17,049 nucleotides of DNA from a virus (lineage: Duplodnaviria > Heunggongvirae > Uroviricota > Caudoviricetes), in IMG/VR virus record IMGVR_UViG_2585427751_000001, one strand, 5' to 3'. Below, one piece after another: positions 1 to 6,000 of this stretch; position 1 is the first letter of the stretch; every line of letters starts with the position of its first letter. The position numbers were made by a program.

Positions 1-3000
1 AAGTGAATTCAAACAGGGTTCTGGCGTCGTTCTCGTACTGTTTTCCCCAGGCCAGCGCCTTAGCATTAACTTCCGGAGCCACACCGGTGCAAACCTCAGC
101 CAGCAGGGTGTGGAAGTAGGACATTTTCATGTCAGGCCACTTCTCTCCTGAGCGGGGCTTTGCTATCACGTTGTGAACTTCTGAAGCGGTGATGACGCCG
201 AGCCGTAATTTGTGCCATGCATCATCCCCCTGTTCGACAGCTCTCACGTCGATCCCGGTACGCTGCAGGATAATGTCCGGTGTCATGCTGCCACCTTCTG
301 CTCAGTGGCTTTCTGTTTCAGGAATCCAAGAGCTTTCACTGCTTCGGCCTGTGTCAGTTCTGACGATGCTCGAATGTCGCGGCGAAATATCTGGGAACAG
401 AGCGGCAATAAGTCGTCATCCCATGTTTTATCCAGGGCGATCAGCAGAGTGTTAATCTCCTGCATGGTTTCATCGTTAACCGGGGTGATGTCGCGTTCCG
501 GCTGACGTTCTGTAGTATATGCAGTATTTTCGACAATACGCTCGGCTTCATCCTTGTCATAGATGCCAGCAAATCCGAAGGCCAGGCGAGCACACTGAAT
601 CATGGCTTTGTGCCGTAACATCCGTTTGGGATGCGACTGCCACGGTCCGGTGATTTCTCTGCCTTCGCGGGTTTTGAATGGTGCGCGGCGACATTCATCC
701 ATCCACTCGGTAACGCAGATCGGGTGATTGCGATCTTTGCGGTAAATCCGGCATGTACAGGACTCATTGTCCTGCTCAAAGTCCATGCCATCAAACTGCT
801 GGTTTTCATTGATAATGCGGGACCAGCCATCAACGCCAACCACCGGAACGATGCCGTTCTGCTTGTCAGGGAAGGCGTAAATTTCTTTCGTCCAGGGATT
901 AAGGCCGTACTGGTTGGCGACGATCAACAATGCGATAAATTGCGCATCGCTGGCATCACCTTTAAATGCCGTCTGGCGAAGAGTGGTGATTAGTTCCTGT
1001 GGGTCGACAGAATCCATGCCGACACGTTCAGCCAGCTTCCCTGCCAGCGTTGCGAGTGCTGTACTCATCCGTTTTATACCTCTGAATCAATATTAATTTG
1101 GTGACGGGCGATGGTTTCAGCCATGTAGCGGATGTGTTCTGCCATGCGTTCCTGAAAATCGACATCGTCATCAAATGCACGGGAAATAGCTTTTTTGCTG
1201 GCCCCGTGACGTTGCAGATTATCGATGCATAGCGATTCAAACAGGTGTTGGGGCAGGCCTTTTTCCATATCGTCTGCCAGTTCTGCCTCTTTCTCTTCAC
1301 GGGCGATCTGCTGGTAGTGACGCGCCCAGCTCTGAGCCTCAAGACGATCCTGAATGTAATAAGCGTTCATGGCTGAACTCCTGAAATAGCTGTGAAAATA
1401 TCGCCCGCGAAATGCCGGGCTGATTAGGAAAACAGGAAAGGGGGGTTAGTGATTCAGGCCGTTACCGCGTCCGTCGAGAAAAACTTCTACGAGCAAATCA
1501 CGGGTATAAGTGCGCTCGATGCCGCGATGCAGATAAAGCCGCCCGCGTAAATTAGCTGATGCAGTCCAGGTACCATCTTTGTGTTTGACCAGCATTCCTG
1601 GCATGACCGCGCCGCGATTAACGGTCTGTGTTCCGTAATGTTGATGAACCATAAAAACTCCTGCCCGTAAGCTGGGCTGCTGAACATATAGAGACTTCTG
1701 CGCGTATTCAGGCGGTGGATGGCCGCCGGTTGTCATAACTAAGCCGCCTCGTTGAAGCGACTGAGGTATGAAATGTTGAGTTAATTTCAGCTGGTCACAC
1801 CGACGTTCACGCGTCCGTTTCACCCCTCGCACTCCCCGAAGCCTGCTGAAATTCAAACTGCGGATCTAAGCGGTCATCGCAACGGTGAATCAGGTGGTTG
1901 CCGTATCGTTGTGTTGTTGCGATATGGTGATAATAGCCATTGCTATTGGGGGGGGTATCAATACTTATTGCTATTGACTGATGTGTTTTGATATTAAATG
2001 TTTGATAGCAAAAAGAATTAATTTTGTGACTTGCATCGCATAGCGATAACTGAAGCAGGGATGTGGTGGTTTTTTGAGCGGTGTGTGATGAGGGGAGGGG
2101 ACAAAAGAAAACCCGGCACGGTGGCCGGGTTATTAATTAAATTAGTCAGTTTTTTCTACTGTAACATAGAGGCAGCATTCAGCATCTTTTCGTAATATGA
2201 ACGCATGTCTTCTTTGCTATATGCGTTGATAAGATTATCAGCGTGTTTTTCCAGTAGATTTAGCTGCTGTTTTGCTGACTTTTCTTGTGCTGTCGTTTCA
2301 GCGGCAAAAATTACAAATGAATCAATATTTGAATTGTATAATTCGTAGGCTTTAGTAATTGTTAAAACACTTATCGCAGCTTCACCCATTTGTTTTTTTA
2401 TATTTTCAGAACGAAAATCTAATGTTTCTGTAAGATGGTATTTGCCATTTTTTAACAAAAAATCTGCAACTAACCCTTCTTCATTACTAATTGGATAATT
2501 AGCTACGATTTTATGTTGGGAAAGATCTTCAAAATACTTACTGAAAATTCCATGTTGTATAAAGGTGGATTTTAATTCAGAAAAAACCTTTTTTTTCAAC
2601 TGTTTATGTGGCTGTTTTTGTGGGTTTACTAACCGATTCATTAGATCAGTAACTTTAGCTTCGTAATCTTCGTTGGCTTGAAGAGTGAACATGCCAAATG
2701 ACGATAACGATAATGCTCCCTTAAAAAGACAAGGAAGAAGTTCAGCATTGTTGATTTTTTGTGACAAATCAAAAAGCGAGGTCGAAAGATCCTCTAAGTA
2801 ATCTAAGGTAAGATCTTTGTCAATCGCTTTAAGTTTTGAAACTGAATTGAGCATACGTACGTCTATGTCAGAGTCATGGTAAACGATCAAACCAACGTTA
2901 ATCGTTTCACCTTTCTCTAAGTTCGGTGTAACTCTGATTAAGCTGTATTTGAAAGTTTTCAAGATGTTATCTCCAGTCTTATGGCATTTAGCCTATCGAT

Positions 3001-6000
3001 TCGCTCCTCGCTGTCCCACCACTTCAAAAAATACTCCTTATGCATTGGTGGCATCCATGCTTCAGGCATAGAGTTAAGTATATCAGATATAGCCTCAACT
3101 CCAATTTTTTCAATTTTGTCAAGGACAGATAATGCGCACTTTCTCAGATCATCAGTGTCGCCAATGAATTGTTTAGCAATCGTCCAGTTTGTTGTTGTAC
3201 TGGAGTCTGTTGGTAGTATATGAGGGGTATTTCGTGGCCAGCCTATAACAAAAGAGCTTAGACTAAAATCGAATGTTTTAACTATAACATTGCCTCGGGT
3301 GTTTTCCATGTATAAGTAGTTGTTGAGGTGTCTGTCAATGTTATATACAAACTGATCAAATGCATAAATTGCCCAGAGTTGCTTCTTTAAGGATTCAGAA
3401 GCATTTGAGAGCAAATTTATCCATTGAGGACTATTGAGACCAGATTTCCAGGCTGAAAACTCTATGCGAGAGCCAAAAACATACTCCCCATTAGCAATAC
3501 ACTTGAGAATTTTGCACACAGGTGTAGCGATGCCGCATTTTTCAGCTAAATTTGTGCAAAACCATTCCGCTGCCGGTACTTGAGTTGGGTTTTGTACAGG
3601 AAAAGGTGGGGTGGAGCGCATGCTTTTAACTGCATATTCCATTTCATCAGTGGCAATAGCGAAACCAGAAAGGTGTGCTGTGCCTAAGCTTGAAGGTGTA
3701 TATTCATGAAATTCTAATTCAAACAAACTTCCTTGCTCTGGTTTCACTTCATCAGTGTTTGACTCTTGTTCTTTCGTCATCAACTTTTTTCCCCAAATCG
3801 AAGACATGCGGACCTCTTAAATTTGAACAACATCATAATGATTAGCTAATCCGCTACCCATGCTTCCTATACGTCTGCGGCATGCTCCCAATAACCTTAC
3901 CGAAGATGAACACCCGGTTCATCTCGTCTTTCTCGATCGGGTCCCACGGTGAGTAGCTCTTGTTATCAGAGATAACCAGCAGCTTATCCTTCATCATTTG
4001 CAGACGCTTTACATGGGCTGTGTCGTCGTACAGAAACGCATAGATACCATCACCGTCGAAAGATTTAACCGTGATATCAACGAACAGCAGATCACCTGGT
4101 TCGATCGTTCCTGACATGCTGTCACCACGCACGTTAATGATGCGGATATTTTCCGCCTTCCTGCCATCGAACATGTGACGAGCATCGTCAAACGAGTACT
4201 CAACCGAGCGTAGAACTTCTACAAACTCACGGTTGATTACACCCGGCCCGGCACTGACTTCTATATCAAGAACGTCAATTTTGAAGTATTTGGAATGGCT
4301 GACAGCAGGCTTCCCTGATTGTTGACCGTCATTTCTCATCGGGCCTATGCCTGATGAGAGCCATTCTGTTCGAACACCCAATGCATTAGCTATTTCAACA
4401 ATTTTTGTTGAGCCGCGCGCGTTGCCGCTTGTCAGTCTCCAGATTGTGGGTTGAGCTACGCCAGACGCCTTTGCAAGAGCGCCTTGAGACATTCCAGATT
4501 GTTCCATCGCTAGGTTTAAGCGATCAGCAAGAGTTTCTTTTTTCATAAGTTTTAATTTATACGCTTGCGTATTGATGGTCAAAACACGTTTTGCTATTGC
4601 TTGGATTAATACGCATTGCTATTATTCATTCATTGCAATACCAATAGGAATTGATAATGACAAATCAAACCATTCAACTCGCAATCAGTATTACAGGTAG
4701 TCAAAAACGACTGGCAGATCTATGCGGTGTAGCCCAACCCACTGTTTGGCGTTGGCTACACGGTGGCGGAATTGATGCCCGCTATGTAATGAAAATTGTC
4801 TCAGCCACTGGTGGAAAGATTAAACCAGCAGATATTCGTCCCGACCTCGCACCATTGTTTAACGCGAGTAATTCTGCCGCCTAAACTGCGGCGTTAACTG
4901 ATAAGGCAATGACTATGCAACCACTTACATACCAACAGACTAGCGGATTTATCCCGACTGCGGTGATAAATCGTTCTCAAATAAAACAGGTGCCAGGCCA
5001 CGAAAAAATCCGTGATGCCATCCGCGCCTGGTCGGCTGTAGATAATCAGGATGTCGTTGCCGCACTCATTGTGAATGAGTATCGAGCACAGGGCGGCGGC
5101 ACTATCGATTTTTCTGATGATGTCAGTCGTGCACGCCAGAAGCTGTTCCGCTTTCTCGATAACAAATTCGATTCTGAAAAATACCGAAATAACGTGCGTG
5201 AACTGACTCCAGCAATTCTGGCAGTACTACCGCTGAAATATCGCGGCCACCTGGTTGAGCAGGATAGCTTCCTGGCTCAGCTGGCTGAAATGGAAAAGGA
5301 ACTCAGTGAGGCAAAACAGGCTGTCATTCTCAACGCACCACGCCACCAGAAACTGAAGGAGATGAGTGAAGGCATTGTGTCGATGTTTCGTGTGGACCCG
5401 GATTTGGCTGGTCCACTGATGGCGATGGTCACCACCATGCTGGGGGCAATATGACAGGTTCAGAAATGGCGAAAGCCGGTCTGCGCGAACAGAACCGACT
5501 TTCAGGTGCAAATCGTAACACACTCATTGCGGGAGGAATTATGGCAAACACTGCTGAGATATTCAATTTTCCAGTGCCGGATGTGGCACAAAAGGAGCCG
5601 CGCGTGGCAGATCTCGATGATGGTTATACGCGCATTGCAAATGAGTTGCTGGAAGCTGTAATGCTGGCCGGATTAACACAGCACCAGCTTCTGGTCTTCC
5701 TGGCTGTCATGCGCAAAACATATGGCTTTAATAAAAAACTGGATTGGGTGAGCAACGAGCAACTTTCCGAGTTAACCGGGATATTGCCGCACAAGTGTTC
5801 TGCTGCAAAAAGCGTTCTGGTAAAGCGTGGGATTTTTATTCAGAGTGGGCGGAATATCGGCATTAATAATGTGGTCAGTGAATGGTCAACATTACCCGAA
5901 TCAGGTAAGAAAAATAAAGTTTACCTGAAAGAGGTAAATTTACCTGAATCAGGTAAGAAAAGTTTACCCAAATCAGGTAAAGGCGTTTACCCGAATCAGG

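What the first reader, a model, noticed from the sequence alone, without database searches (positions are those of the whole stretch)
2101..4582. The cassette appears to be part of the cI immunity transcript (lysogen-expressed), bounded by a terminator
Only 46 bp separate the cI stop (3854) from the kinase-like gene's start (3807). That gap holds a Shine-Dalgarno sequence and no hairpin/T-run terminator that I can see. A clear stem-loop followed by a T-rich run on the minus strand (2101..2130) lies just after the second gene. So the expected transcript is pRM -> cI -> kinase-like -> partner -> terminator, the same logic as lambda cI-rexA-rexB ending at tImm. The cargo would then be made whenever the prophage is repressed.
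Basis: seen in the sequence. Interest (0 to 1): 0.5.

Follow-up and report, generated by a model that had tools for sequence, protein, structure and literature searches.

The report
Kinase defence cassette behind prophage repressor
A lambda-like E. coli prophage carries a foreign two-gene cassette (a HipA-like kinase and its DUF3037 partner) between its repressor gene and that operon's terminator, so lysogens probably make it with the repressor; this is the ordinary, long-known way such prophages carry anti-phage genes.

Summary
The cI stop is at 3856..3854. A 46-nt gap follows, with an AAGAGG ribosome-binding site and no terminator. The kinase gene runs 3807..2959. The DUF3037 gene runs 2962..2156, and its TTG start overlaps the kinase stop. 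An intrinsic terminator (stem-loop 2131..2110, T-run to 2101) lies 24 nt further on. One correction: cI starts at ATG 4546. The TTG at 4582 is the -35 of a pRM-like promoter.

The operon reading is well supported, but only by sequence and comparison; I found no RNA data. In ten related loci, seven other cargoes (plus one deletion remnant) fill the space between the cI stop codon and the same terminator, all on cI's strand. An eighth, SIR2, starts at the cI stop but replaces the terminator. Homologues of this kinase/DUF3037 pair follow four other, different repressor genes. None has a terminator in the gap and each has one after the pair. No internal promoter scores above chance.

The cargo is a remote relative of the validated DS-6/HipAD defence system, which occupies the same slot in a sister prophage.

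The layout matches lambda cI-rexAB, 434 hex, 933W stk and BTP1 bstA. It is a new member of a known kind, of modest interest.

The parts
4575..4624 (.). Right operator region (OR): two copies of the ..TTGCTATTG operator family. The copy at 4582..4599 abuts the -35 of the pRM-like promoter. A third site towards 4650 is possible but was not resolved.
   Evidence: repeat family D1: 4575-4599 and 4600-4624, plus two more copies at OL
4554..4582 (-). pRM-like promoter TTGACC-17-TAAATT. Its -10 ends 7 nt before the cI ATG, which predicts a leaderless or near-leaderless cI message.
   Evidence: highest-scoring site on this strand between 4700 and 2100, score 11.7
3854..4546 (-). cI-type repressor, 230 aa: N-terminal HTH and C-terminal S24 autopeptidase, with VSA/GPG cleavage site, GDSMSG serine and VKRL lysine
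   Evidence: Peptidase_S24 1.3e-18, HTH_3 1.8e-6; phrog_4 5e-69
3808..3853 (-). 46-nt cI-to-kinase spacer with Shine-Dalgarno AAGAGG at 3818..3813. It has no terminator and no promoter above chance. It is the 5' edge of the swapped cassette.
   Evidence: breakpoint at 3854/3855
2959..3807 (-). HipA_2-family Ser/Thr kinase-like protein, 282 aa. The catalytic loop FDQFVYNIDRHLNN, K61 and D180 are invariant in the family.
   Evidence: PF20613, 28.7 bits against a cut-off of 27; hhalign to DS-6A, 96.8%; predicted fold matches CtkA, HipA, HipT
2156..2962 (-). DUF3037 partner, 268 aa. Its TTG start overlaps the kinase TGA stop (cTTGA), with GGAG 8 nt upstream. The C-terminal half has a nuclease-like alpha/beta fold.
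   Evidence: PF11236, 38.5 bits; PDC-M66B 2.6e-8; phrog_5137 5e-73
2101..2131 (-). Intrinsic terminator (8-bp stem, 6-nt loop, T-run), 24 nt after the DUF3037 stop. It belongs to the conserved phage backbone and marks the 3' edge of the cargo slot.
1924..1976 (.). Left operator region (OL): two copies of the same operator family. The leftward early promoter is presumed to overlap them but was not pinned down.

Best explanation
This is the immunity operon of a lambda-like E. coli prophage, with a horizontally acquired two-gene cargo inserted in it.

In a lysogen, repressor bound at OR activates a pRM-like promoter (4582..4554). The transcript starts at or next to the cI ATG (4546). It runs through cI, crosses a 46-nt spacer that has a ribosome-binding site but no terminator, and continues through the HipA-like kinase gene and the DUF3037 gene, which is translationally coupled to it. 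It stops at the conserved hairpin and T-run at 2131..2101. The predicted message is about 2.4 kb. The terminator keeps this constitutive transcription from running across OL into the toxic early-left genes (kil, gam, bet).

The cargo is a distant relative of the validated DS-6/HipAD (PADLOC candidate PDC-M66) system. In that system the kinase acts as a toxin or effector, the DUF3037 protein holds it in check, and infection by another phage releases it and aborts the infection.

What is shown: the anatomy, the boundaries of the slot, the recurrence of the arrangement and the family assignment. What is inferred: co-transcription, termination efficiency and defence activity.
For: Anatomy
- Coordinates, ribosome-binding site, overlapping TTG/TGA and terminator were verified.

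Promoter
- The pRM-like site is the top-scoring site on this strand (11.7).
- Nothing above chance lies upstream of the kinase: best 7.1, against a shuffle median of 6.9.

Lambda-type layout
- The operator family occurs at both 4575..4624 and 1924..1976.
- cro-like (YdaS) and cII-like (YdaT) genes diverge from cI.

A defined cargo slot
- BLAST homology to PhiR30_1, 4A7 and EcPF20 ends at 3854/3855 and resumes at 2130-2137.
- Nine loci carry six other cassettes between the cI stop and the same terminator. JJ1886 has only a 114-nt remnant between cI and that terminator.
- O157:H7 carries a SIR2 gene that starts at the cI stop but also replaces the terminator and OL.
- All cargoes are on the cI strand.
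- The cassette is 36.6% G+C, against 48-51% in the flanks.

The same pair recurs behind other repressors
- Homologues 71-87% identical lie directly 3' of four further, different repressor genes: Klebsiella L010, L011, L016 and Proteus L018 (the last followed by an N gene).
- The gaps are 28-182 nt. None has a terminator-like site, and all have a hairpin and T-run after the DUF3037 stop.
- In a chromosomal, non-prophage context (L021), the upstream gene has its own terminator and 864 nt precede the kinase.

Cargo identity
- HipA_2 is above the Pfam cut-off.
- Kinase residues are invariant in the family.
- hhalign to DS-6A gives 96.8% probability, E 2.8e-10.
- The predicted fold matches CtkA, HipA and HipT.
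- DS-6 proteins WP_000389051 and WP_000210934 sit in this very slot in EcPF20.
- Published tests: mutating a predicted catalytic residue of DS-6A abolished defence (PMC13092281; listed as D139A in the strain table). In a related pair, deleting the kinase abolished defence and deleting the DUF3037 gene was toxic (PMC12548924).

Precedent
- Lambda rex, 434 hex and 933W stk are co-transcribed with cI from PRM (PMC11077077; PMC3564112).
Against: - There are no RNA data for this or any sister prophage.
- A weak promoter-like site, TGGGTA-17-TATGAT (-10 ends at 3832), straddles the cI stop and cannot be excluded.
- The A+T-rich cargo contains several promoter-like matches, for example 3338..3309 and 3308..3281 inside the kinase gene.
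- Some other cassettes in the slot have longer gaps with promoter-like sites, such as TTGACG-17-AACAAT in L005.
[quoted passage not shown] That allele may therefore have a promoter of its own.
- Relatives exist as free-standing units outside prophages (L021).
- The partner protein matches DS-6B only over its first ~28 residues.
- PADLOC matches are weak (PDC-M66A E 0.0016), so defence function is carried over from distant relatives.
- DNA this A+T-rich is a typical H-NS target (general knowledge), which could lower or polarise expression.
Confidence: 0.72

Rival explanations
1. The cassette is a self-contained unit driven mainly by its own promoter, either at the cI/cassette junction or inside the cassette. 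Its position behind cI reflects only a recombination hotspot. Expression would then not depend on pRM or on the repressed state.
For: - DS-6 worked on a plasmid with only its predicted native promoter region (PMC13092281).
- Relatives stand alone in chromosomes with long upstream gaps (L021, L013).
- A promoter-like site lies in the cI-cargo gap of the ImmA/DUF4411 cassette and in the Klebsiella gap (ATGAGA-16-GATAAT).
- A weak TGGGTA-17-TATGAT site lies at 3860..3832.
Against: - The window's gap is 46 nt and the Proteus gap is 28 nt. Neither has room for a promoter plus leader unless the promoter uses cI coding sequence.
- The junction site scores at the median of shuffled sequence.
- No terminator shields the cassette from cI transcription in any of five repressor contexts. 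Read-through from cI would therefore occur even if a second promoter existed.
- All cargoes are co-oriented with cI.
Confidence: 0.15
2. The cassette is transcribed little or not at all in lysogens. It could be silenced by H-NS on the A+T-rich DNA, be subject to Rho-dependent polarity after cI, or be a decaying remnant. The terminator would then serve cI alone.
For: - The cassette is 36.6% G+C, against about 50% in the flanks.
- In JJ1886 the terminator follows cI after only 114 nt, so it works as the cI terminator without any cargo.
Against: - Both reading frames are intact.
- Catalytic residues are invariant across 25 homologues.
- The sequence is identical in many unrelated E. coli strains.
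- The ribosome-binding site and translational coupling are preserved.
- Close translation start sites leave little untranslated RNA for Rho.
- Lysogen expression is documented for cargo in the same position (bstA transcriptomics, PMC8585504).
Confidence: 0.08
3. The pair is not mainly an anti-phage system. It could be an addiction or regulatory module of the prophage itself, for example one that stabilises the prophage or modulates induction, as lambda RexA and 434 Hex modulate the switch.
For: - RexA biases the lambda switch (PMC11077077).
- Hex prevents repressor autocleavage (PMC3564112).
- The toxin/antitoxin-like behaviour of a related pair (PMC12548924) would also fit an addiction module.
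Against: - Two independent studies found phage defence for kinase/DUF3037 pairs.
- The other cargoes in the slot carry domains seen in defence or toxin-antitoxin systems: SIR2, Panacea, and ImmA/IrrE with DUF4411.
Confidence: 0.05

Closest known systems
Phage lambda immunity operon pRM-cI-rexA-rexB-tImm
   Same: - Accessory genes lie directly 3' of cI on the same strand and are transcribed from PRM in lysogens (PMC11077077).
- The unit lies between OR and OL, with a terminator before OL.
- The pRM-like promoter sits next to an operator and predicts a leaderless cI start.
   Different: - The cargo proteins are unrelated to RexA and RexB; no such Pfam or PHROG match was found.
- No equivalent of the internal pLit promoter has been shown.
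- This phage has no N gene after OL. Instead a leader of about 280 nt precedes kil.
DS-6 / HipAD (Brenes & Laub 2025; DefensePredictor, PMC13092281) and PADLOC candidate PDC-M66
   Same: - Two overlapping genes in the order HipA-family kinase then DUF3037 protein.
- DS-6 itself (WP_000389051 and WP_000210934) sits between the same cI and the same terminator in sister prophage EcPF20.
- The kinase families are related by profile comparison: 96.8% probability, with the DS-6A D139 position aligned to D158 here.
   Different: - The kinases share only about 21-27% identity.
- The partners align only over the first ~28 residues.
- PADLOC scores are weak.
- No phage challenge data exist for this allele.
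933W stk and 434 hex (genes co-transcribed with cI)
   Same: PMC3564112 states that many lambdoid phages encode extra proteins on the PRM transcript. It cites 933W, where a kinase is co-transcribed with cI and aborts HK97 infection. A kinase in this position therefore has a precedent.
   Different: - Stk is a eukaryotic-like tyrosine kinase and a single gene. Here the kinase is HipA-like and has a partner.
- Sequence relatedness to Stk was not tested.
BstA of Salmonella prophage BTP1
   Same: - It lies downstream of cI and is described as 'presumably sharing the promoter'.
- It is highly expressed in lysogeny and is followed by its own Rho-independent terminator.
- The cI-to-N interval is described as a hotspot of mosaic diversity (PMC8585504).
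   Different: - It is a single protein of another family.
- It has a DNA-based self-immunity element (aba). None was looked for here.
HipBA type II toxin-antitoxin system
   Same: HipA-type kinase fold and catalytic loop.
   Different: - There is no HipB-like HTH antitoxin.
- The partner lies downstream, not upstream, and has a DUF3037 N-terminus and a nuclease-like C-terminal half.
- The kinase has 282 aa, against about 440 for HipA.
HipA-like/DUF3037 pair next to Retron-Sda1 (PMC12548924)
   Same: Same domain pair. Deleting the kinase abolished defence and deleting the DUF3037 gene was toxic, which suggests a toxin and a neutraliser.
   Different: That pair sits in a retron operon of an environmental bacterium. 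Its sequence similarity to the window pair was not measured.

Membership tests
Lambda-type immunity operon (repressor plus accessory genes on the pRM transcript) | An autocleavable cI-type repressor diverging from cro/cII-like genes, with repressor operators on both sides of the unit | tested here: met
   S24 and HTH domains; cleavage-site and catalytic motifs; YdaS/Cro-like and YdaT/CII-like genes on the other strand; operator family at 4575..4624 and 1924..1976
Lambda-type immunity operon (repressor plus accessory genes on the pRM transcript) | Accessory genes directly 3' of the repressor on the same strand, with no terminator and no separate promoter between | tested here: met
   46-nt gap; no terminator-like site; best promoter-like score 7.1, equal to the shuffle median. 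A weak promoter cannot be excluded from sequence alone.
Lambda-type immunity operon (repressor plus accessory genes on the pRM transcript) | An intrinsic terminator after the last accessory gene and before OL/pL (the tImm position) | tested here: met
   Hairpin and T-run at 2131..2101, -14.2 kcal/mol; unchanged or near-unchanged across nine loci with different cargo and in an empty slot; OL lies at 1924..1976
Lambda-type immunity operon (repressor plus accessory genes on the pRM transcript) | One RNA spanning the repressor and the accessory genes in a lysogen | not testable with these tools
   No transcript data were available. This needs RT-PCR, a Northern blot, or RNA-seq and Term-seq.
Rex exclusion system (RexA/RexB) | Sequence homology to RexA and RexB | tested here: not met
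   No Rex family among the Pfam, PHROG or PADLOC matches. The resemblance is in layout only.
HipA-family kinases (Pfam HipA_2, PF20613) | Score above the Pfam gathering threshold, with conserved catalytic residues | tested here: met
   28.7 bits against a cut-off of 27, so only just above it. K61, D151, N156, D158, R159, H160, N163 and D180 are invariant in 25 homologues. The predicted structure (pLDDT 86.5) best matches CtkA, HipA and HipT.
DS-6 / HipAD / PDC-M66 (kinase plus DUF3037 defence pair) | HipA-family kinase gene immediately followed by an overlapping DUF3037 gene | tested here: met
   Kinase 3807..2959 and DUF3037 2962..2156 overlap by 4 nt. The order and overlap are the same as in DS-6 in L003.
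DS-6 / HipAD / PDC-M66 (kinase plus DUF3037 defence pair) | Both proteins homologous to the reference proteins | tested here: inconclusive
   Kinase: hhalign 96.8%, E 2.8e-10, but PDC-M66A only E 0.0016. Partner: PDC-M66B E 2.6e-8 over residues 1-190, but hhalign to DS-6B covers only 28 residues at 45% probability.
DS-6 / HipAD / PDC-M66 (kinase plus DUF3037 defence pair) | Protection against phage that depends on kinase activity | not testable with these tools
   Shown only for DS-6 (PMC13092281) and for the Retron-Sda1 pair (PMC12548924).
HipBA type II toxin-antitoxin | An HTH antitoxin, HipB, encoded upstream of the kinase | tested here: not met
   The gene upstream is cI. The partner lies downstream and has no HTH match. 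Its predicted fold is nuclease-like.

The most novel reading that the evidence does not exclude
Placement on the repressor transcript may be part of the mechanism, not only a convenient way to be expressed. The kinase and its DUF3037 partner would then be made only while pRM fires. Any event that shuts pRM or host transcription down would stop resupply of a short-lived partner and release the kinase. Such events include shut-off of host transcription by an invading phage, or Cro repression during the prophage's own induction. The immunity promoter would act as the sensor.

A related possibility is that the partner is not a passive antitoxin but the real effector, controlled by phosphorylation. 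Its C-terminal half is predicted to have a restriction-endonuclease-like fold.
Probability: 0.12. Interest if true: 0.55.

Novelty: new member of a known kind. Interest (0 to 1): 0.3.

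Why it matters
The finding gives a clean, testable example of the cargo slot in a prophage backbone whose terminator segment occurs in about a quarter of complete E. coli genomes. The slot has base-precise borders: the cI stop codon and the stem of the operon terminator. It holds at least eight interchangeable cargoes with those borders, and a ninth (SIR2) that starts at the cI stop but replaces the terminator. Several carry domains known from defence or toxin-antitoxin systems.

This has two practical uses.
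1. Unknown genes found in this slot are good candidates for new anti-phage systems.
2. The window's pair is a diverged second allele of HipAD that could be compared with DS-6 to learn what the DUF3037 partner does.

It does not change how lambdoid immunity regions are understood. Co-transcription of accessory or exclusion genes with cI has been textbook knowledge since rexAB.

Tried and rejected
- Internal promoter: consensus and weight-matrix scans of the cI 3' end and the gap found nothing above shuffled sequence.
- Structured element in the gap: the GCGGA...TCCGC pairing appears in the predicted fold, but the energy is no better than shuffles, z about 0.
- Known RNA families: Rfam found nothing relevant between 1400 and 4700, even at E up to 1. 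At gathering thresholds the window has only three tRNAs and STnc100 elsewhere.
- Lambda-type pRE signature TTGC-N6-TTGC near cro/cII: absent. The single match in the window lies inside the kinase gene, on the other strand, and at chance frequency.
- Rex homology: none.
- Direct BLASTP of the pair against DS-6A and DS-6B: only marginal. Profile comparison rescued the kinase but not the partner.
- Sequence search of the kinase profile against PDB: only E about 0.6 to HipT. The fold search was needed.
- The kinase in isolated phages: no tblastn match among 50,697 phage records, so no studied phage carries this allele.
- The paper that named HipAD (Brenes & Laub 2025, PMID 40409266) is not in the library. 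Searches for 'HipAD' gave nothing further. I could not check whether it already describes this slot or lysogen expression.
- pL was not located convincingly. The obvious hexamers TTGATA and TATTAT are 20 nt apart.

Full report
**What is in the sequence**

On the minus strand the window reads as follows:
- a cI-type repressor gene, 4546..3854, with TAG stop at 3856..3854;
- a 46-nt spacer, 3853..3808, CGGATTAGCTAATCATTATGATGTTGTTCAAATTTAAGAGGTCCGC, with AAGAGG 5 nt before the next ATG;
- a 282-codon gene, 3807..2959;
- a 268-codon gene, 2962..2156, whose TTG start overlaps the preceding TGA (cTTGA) and has GGAG 8 nt upstream;
- 24 nt of spacer;
- the hairpin AACCCGGC-CACCGT-GCCGGGTT (2131..2110), followed by TTCTTTTG.

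The consensus scan reports this hairpin with 8 pairs, 6 of them G-C. It reports no terminator-like site in the spacer. The hairpin folds at -14.2 kcal/mol, while the spacer folds no better than shuffled sequence.

There are two small corrections. The stem starts at 2131. The repressor most likely starts at ATG 4546, as RefSeq annotates the same protein in sister prophages, not at TTG 4582.

**The setting is a lambda-like immunity region**

- The repressor has an HTH and an S24 autopeptidase domain, with VSA/GPG, GDSMSG and VKRL motifs.
- Diverging from it are a YdaS/Cro-like gene and a YdaT/CII-like gene, followed by O- and P-type replication genes.
- To the left lie kil, gam and bet.
- One repeat family (..TTGCTATTG) occurs twice at 4575..4624 and twice at 1924..1976. 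These are the expected OR and OL, so the repressor, the two extra genes and the hairpin all lie between OR and OL. The hairpin sits where lambda has tImm.
- The best sigma-70-like site on this strand between 4700 and 2100 is TTGACC-17-TAAATT at 4582..4554. It abuts an operator copy and ends 7 nt before the cI ATG, with no ribosome-binding site in between. From general knowledge, this is the arrangement of lambda pRM and its leaderless cI message.

**Is there a separate promoter or terminator for the cargo?**

A weight-matrix scan of the last 190 nt of cI plus the spacer gave a best score of 7.1 (TGGGTA-17-TATGAT, -10 ending at 3832). The median best score of 300 shuffles was 6.9 and the 95th percentile 10.4. 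Nothing is above chance, although a weak promoter cannot be excluded.

Promoter-like matches inside the kinase gene (3338..3309 and 3308..3281) lie in A+T-rich coding sequence and remain unverified. One weak terminator-like match inside the second gene (2737..2716, 3 G-C pairs) is probably chance.

**Comparative evidence 1: a cargo slot with exact borders**

- The repressor and its flanks are common. Of 5426 complete E. coli genomes, 2209 match part of the query, but only 24 carry this cargo.
- BLAST against phages PhiR30_1 and 4A7 and against strain EcPF20 shows homology ending at window 3854/3855, the cI stop codon. It resumes at 2130-2137, the foot of the hairpin.
- Anchored extraction from nine loci gave six other cassettes between those two points:
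  - DUF6932 plus a hypothetical protein;
  - a 353-aa protein plus ASCH;
  - the DS-6 kinase plus DUF3037;
  - ImmA/IrrE plus DUF4411;
  - Panacea plus a hypothetical protein;
  - two small hypothetical proteins.
- All are on the cI strand.
- The core CCCGGCCACCGTGCCGGGTTTTCTTTTG is unchanged in eight of the nine loci; L009 has one T-to-G change in the T-run. The bases just 5' of it differ.
- Strain JJ1886 has an almost empty slot. The cI stop is followed by 114 nt made of the two ends of the ASCH-type cassette, then by the same hairpin with one C-to-T change that keeps a G.U pair. That prophage has a different repressor N-terminal domain and a different OL, so the conserved module is the cI C-terminal half, the slot and the terminator.
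- An O157:H7 prophage carries a single SIR2 gene that begins at the cI stop. There the replaced segment extends past the terminator and OL.
- The 146-nt stretch that contains the terminator occurs in 1231 of 5426 genomes. Matches stop at window 2129-2135.
- The cargo is 36.6% G+C, against 48-51% around it.

**Comparative evidence 2: the same pair behind other repressors**

Homologues of the kinase (53 clusters) were traced to their contigs. Pairs 71-87% identical lie immediately 3' of four further, mutually different repressor genes on the same strand:

| Locus | Repressor | Gap to kinase |
|---|---|---|
| L010 (Klebsiella) | 131-aa CI_repr type | 170 nt |
| L011 | 214-aa S24 type | 57 nt |
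| L016 | 127-aa HTH_3 type | 182 nt |
| L018-L020 (Proteus) | 227-aa S24 type, with an N gene further on | 28 nt |

- None of the five gaps, including the window's, has a terminator-like site.
- All five have a hairpin and T-run starting 7-30 nt after the DUF3037 stop.
- By contrast, a 44%-identical pair in a chromosomal context follows recD, which has its own terminator, and is separated from it by 864 nt.
- A Vibrio island copy has a 219-nt gap.

This contrast is what an operon with the repressor predicts. It is still not a transcript measurement.

**What the cargo is**

*The first protein.* It passes the Pfam HipA_2 threshold narrowly, at 28.7 bits against 27. Across 25 homologues K61, D151, N156, D158, R159, H160, N163 and D180 are invariant. 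Its predicted structure (pLDDT 86.5, pTM 0.83) best matches CtkA, HipA and HipT.

*Relation to known systems.*
- PADLOC gives weak matches to the candidate system PDC-M66 (A: E 0.0016; B: E 2.6e-8).
- The validated system DS-6, renamed HipAD, consists of WP_000389051 and WP_000210934 (PMC13092281 supplement). These are the two proteins in the same slot of EcPF20.
- The window kinase family aligns to DS-6A with 96.8% probability. D158 aligns with D139, the residue listed as mutated (D139A) in that paper's strain table; the paper reports that the catalytic mutant lost defence.
- The partners align only over about 28 N-terminal residues.
- In a related pair, deleting the kinase abolished defence and deleting the DUF3037 gene was toxic (PMC12548924).

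I therefore read the cargo as a diverged kinase-toxin and neutraliser defence pair. This rests on distant relatives only.

**How this compares with what is known**

- PMC3564112 states that many lambdoid phages encode additional proteins on the PRM transcript. It names lambda rexAB, 434 hex and the 933W tyrosine kinase, which is co-transcribed with cI and aborts HK97 infection.
- PMC11077077 states that the rex genes are transcribed from PRM.
- PMC8585504 describes bstA downstream of cI, 'presumably sharing the promoter', highly expressed in lysogeny and followed by its own terminator. It recalls that the cI-to-N interval is a known hotspot of mosaic diversity.

The architecture is therefore established, and even a kinase in this position has a precedent. 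What is specific here is the exact definition of the slot in this very common E. coli backbone, and a second, diverged kinase/DUF3037 allele in it. I could not read the paper that named HipAD, so it may already cover part of this.

**Verdict**

My confidence is about 0.7 that the cargo is co-transcribed with cI and terminated at 2131..2101. The main rival is an additional or dominant promoter belonging to the cassette, at about 0.15. It is a new member of a known kind, of modest interest (0.3).

Noticed in passing
[not shown]
   Followed up: partly
L024 (E. coli JJ1886) 3886..4001; compare window 2131..3853: This is an 'empty' cargo slot. The cI stop is followed by 114 nt made of the 5' and 3' ends of the ASCH-type cassette, then by the same terminator with a C-to-T change that keeps a G.U pair. 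This prophage is heteroimmune (different cI N-terminal domain and OL) but shares the cI C-terminal half and the terminator. These two pieces look like the recombination anchors of the slot.
   Followed up: partly
L023 (E. coli O157:H7 SS NE 1040-1) 3287..4888: A single 533-aa SIR2-family gene follows the same cI. Homology to the window resumes only at 1889, so this cargo also replaced the terminator and the OL region.
   Followed up: partly
window 1652..1976: There is no N-type antiterminator gene between OL and the early-left genes. A leader of about 280 nt without an ORF precedes kil (ATG 1652). It has G+C-rich inverted repeats, for example GGCGGC..GCCGCC around 1735..1710. Rfam found nothing there. 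How early-left transcription is regulated in this phage group was not examined.
   Followed up: no
window 3808..3854: GCGGA at the cI stop codon can pair with TCCGC just before the kinase ATG, enclosing the ribosome-binding site. The fold is no more stable than shuffles (z about 0). If real, it would couple kinase translation to ribosomes finishing cI.
   Followed up: partly
window 3281..3338 (minus strand, inside the kinase gene): Two overlapping promoter-like sites, TTGACA-18-TATACA and TGGAAA-16-TATAGT with an upstream TG, score 10.6 and 9.6. If active, they would give a DUF3037-only transcript, like lambda pLit for rexB. They lie in the codons of the conserved catalytic loop, so conservation cannot be used to judge them.
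   Followed up: no
L010 5669..5690 and L016 5153..5172: In Klebsiella the same cassette, behind an unrelated repressor, is followed by nearly the same hairpin (ACCCGGCCACCATGCCGGGT). L016 has a related one (TCCGGCCGCCGAGCCGGG) with a poor T-run and a stronger terminator 79 nt after the DUF3037 stop. The hairpin may travel with cargo or serve as a crossover point.
   Followed up: no
window 13723..14239: Three tRNA genes (13723..13795, 13806..13879, 13896..13969) are followed by a full-length match to the sRNA family STnc100 (14049..14239, 139 bits) in the late-regulatory part of the prophage.
   Followed up: no
window 1949..1956: A run of eight C (minus strand) separates the two OL operator copies and lies between the most obvious -35-like (TTGATA) and -10-like (TATTAT) hexamers. 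That makes their spacing 20 nt, so pL could not be assigned.
   Followed up: no
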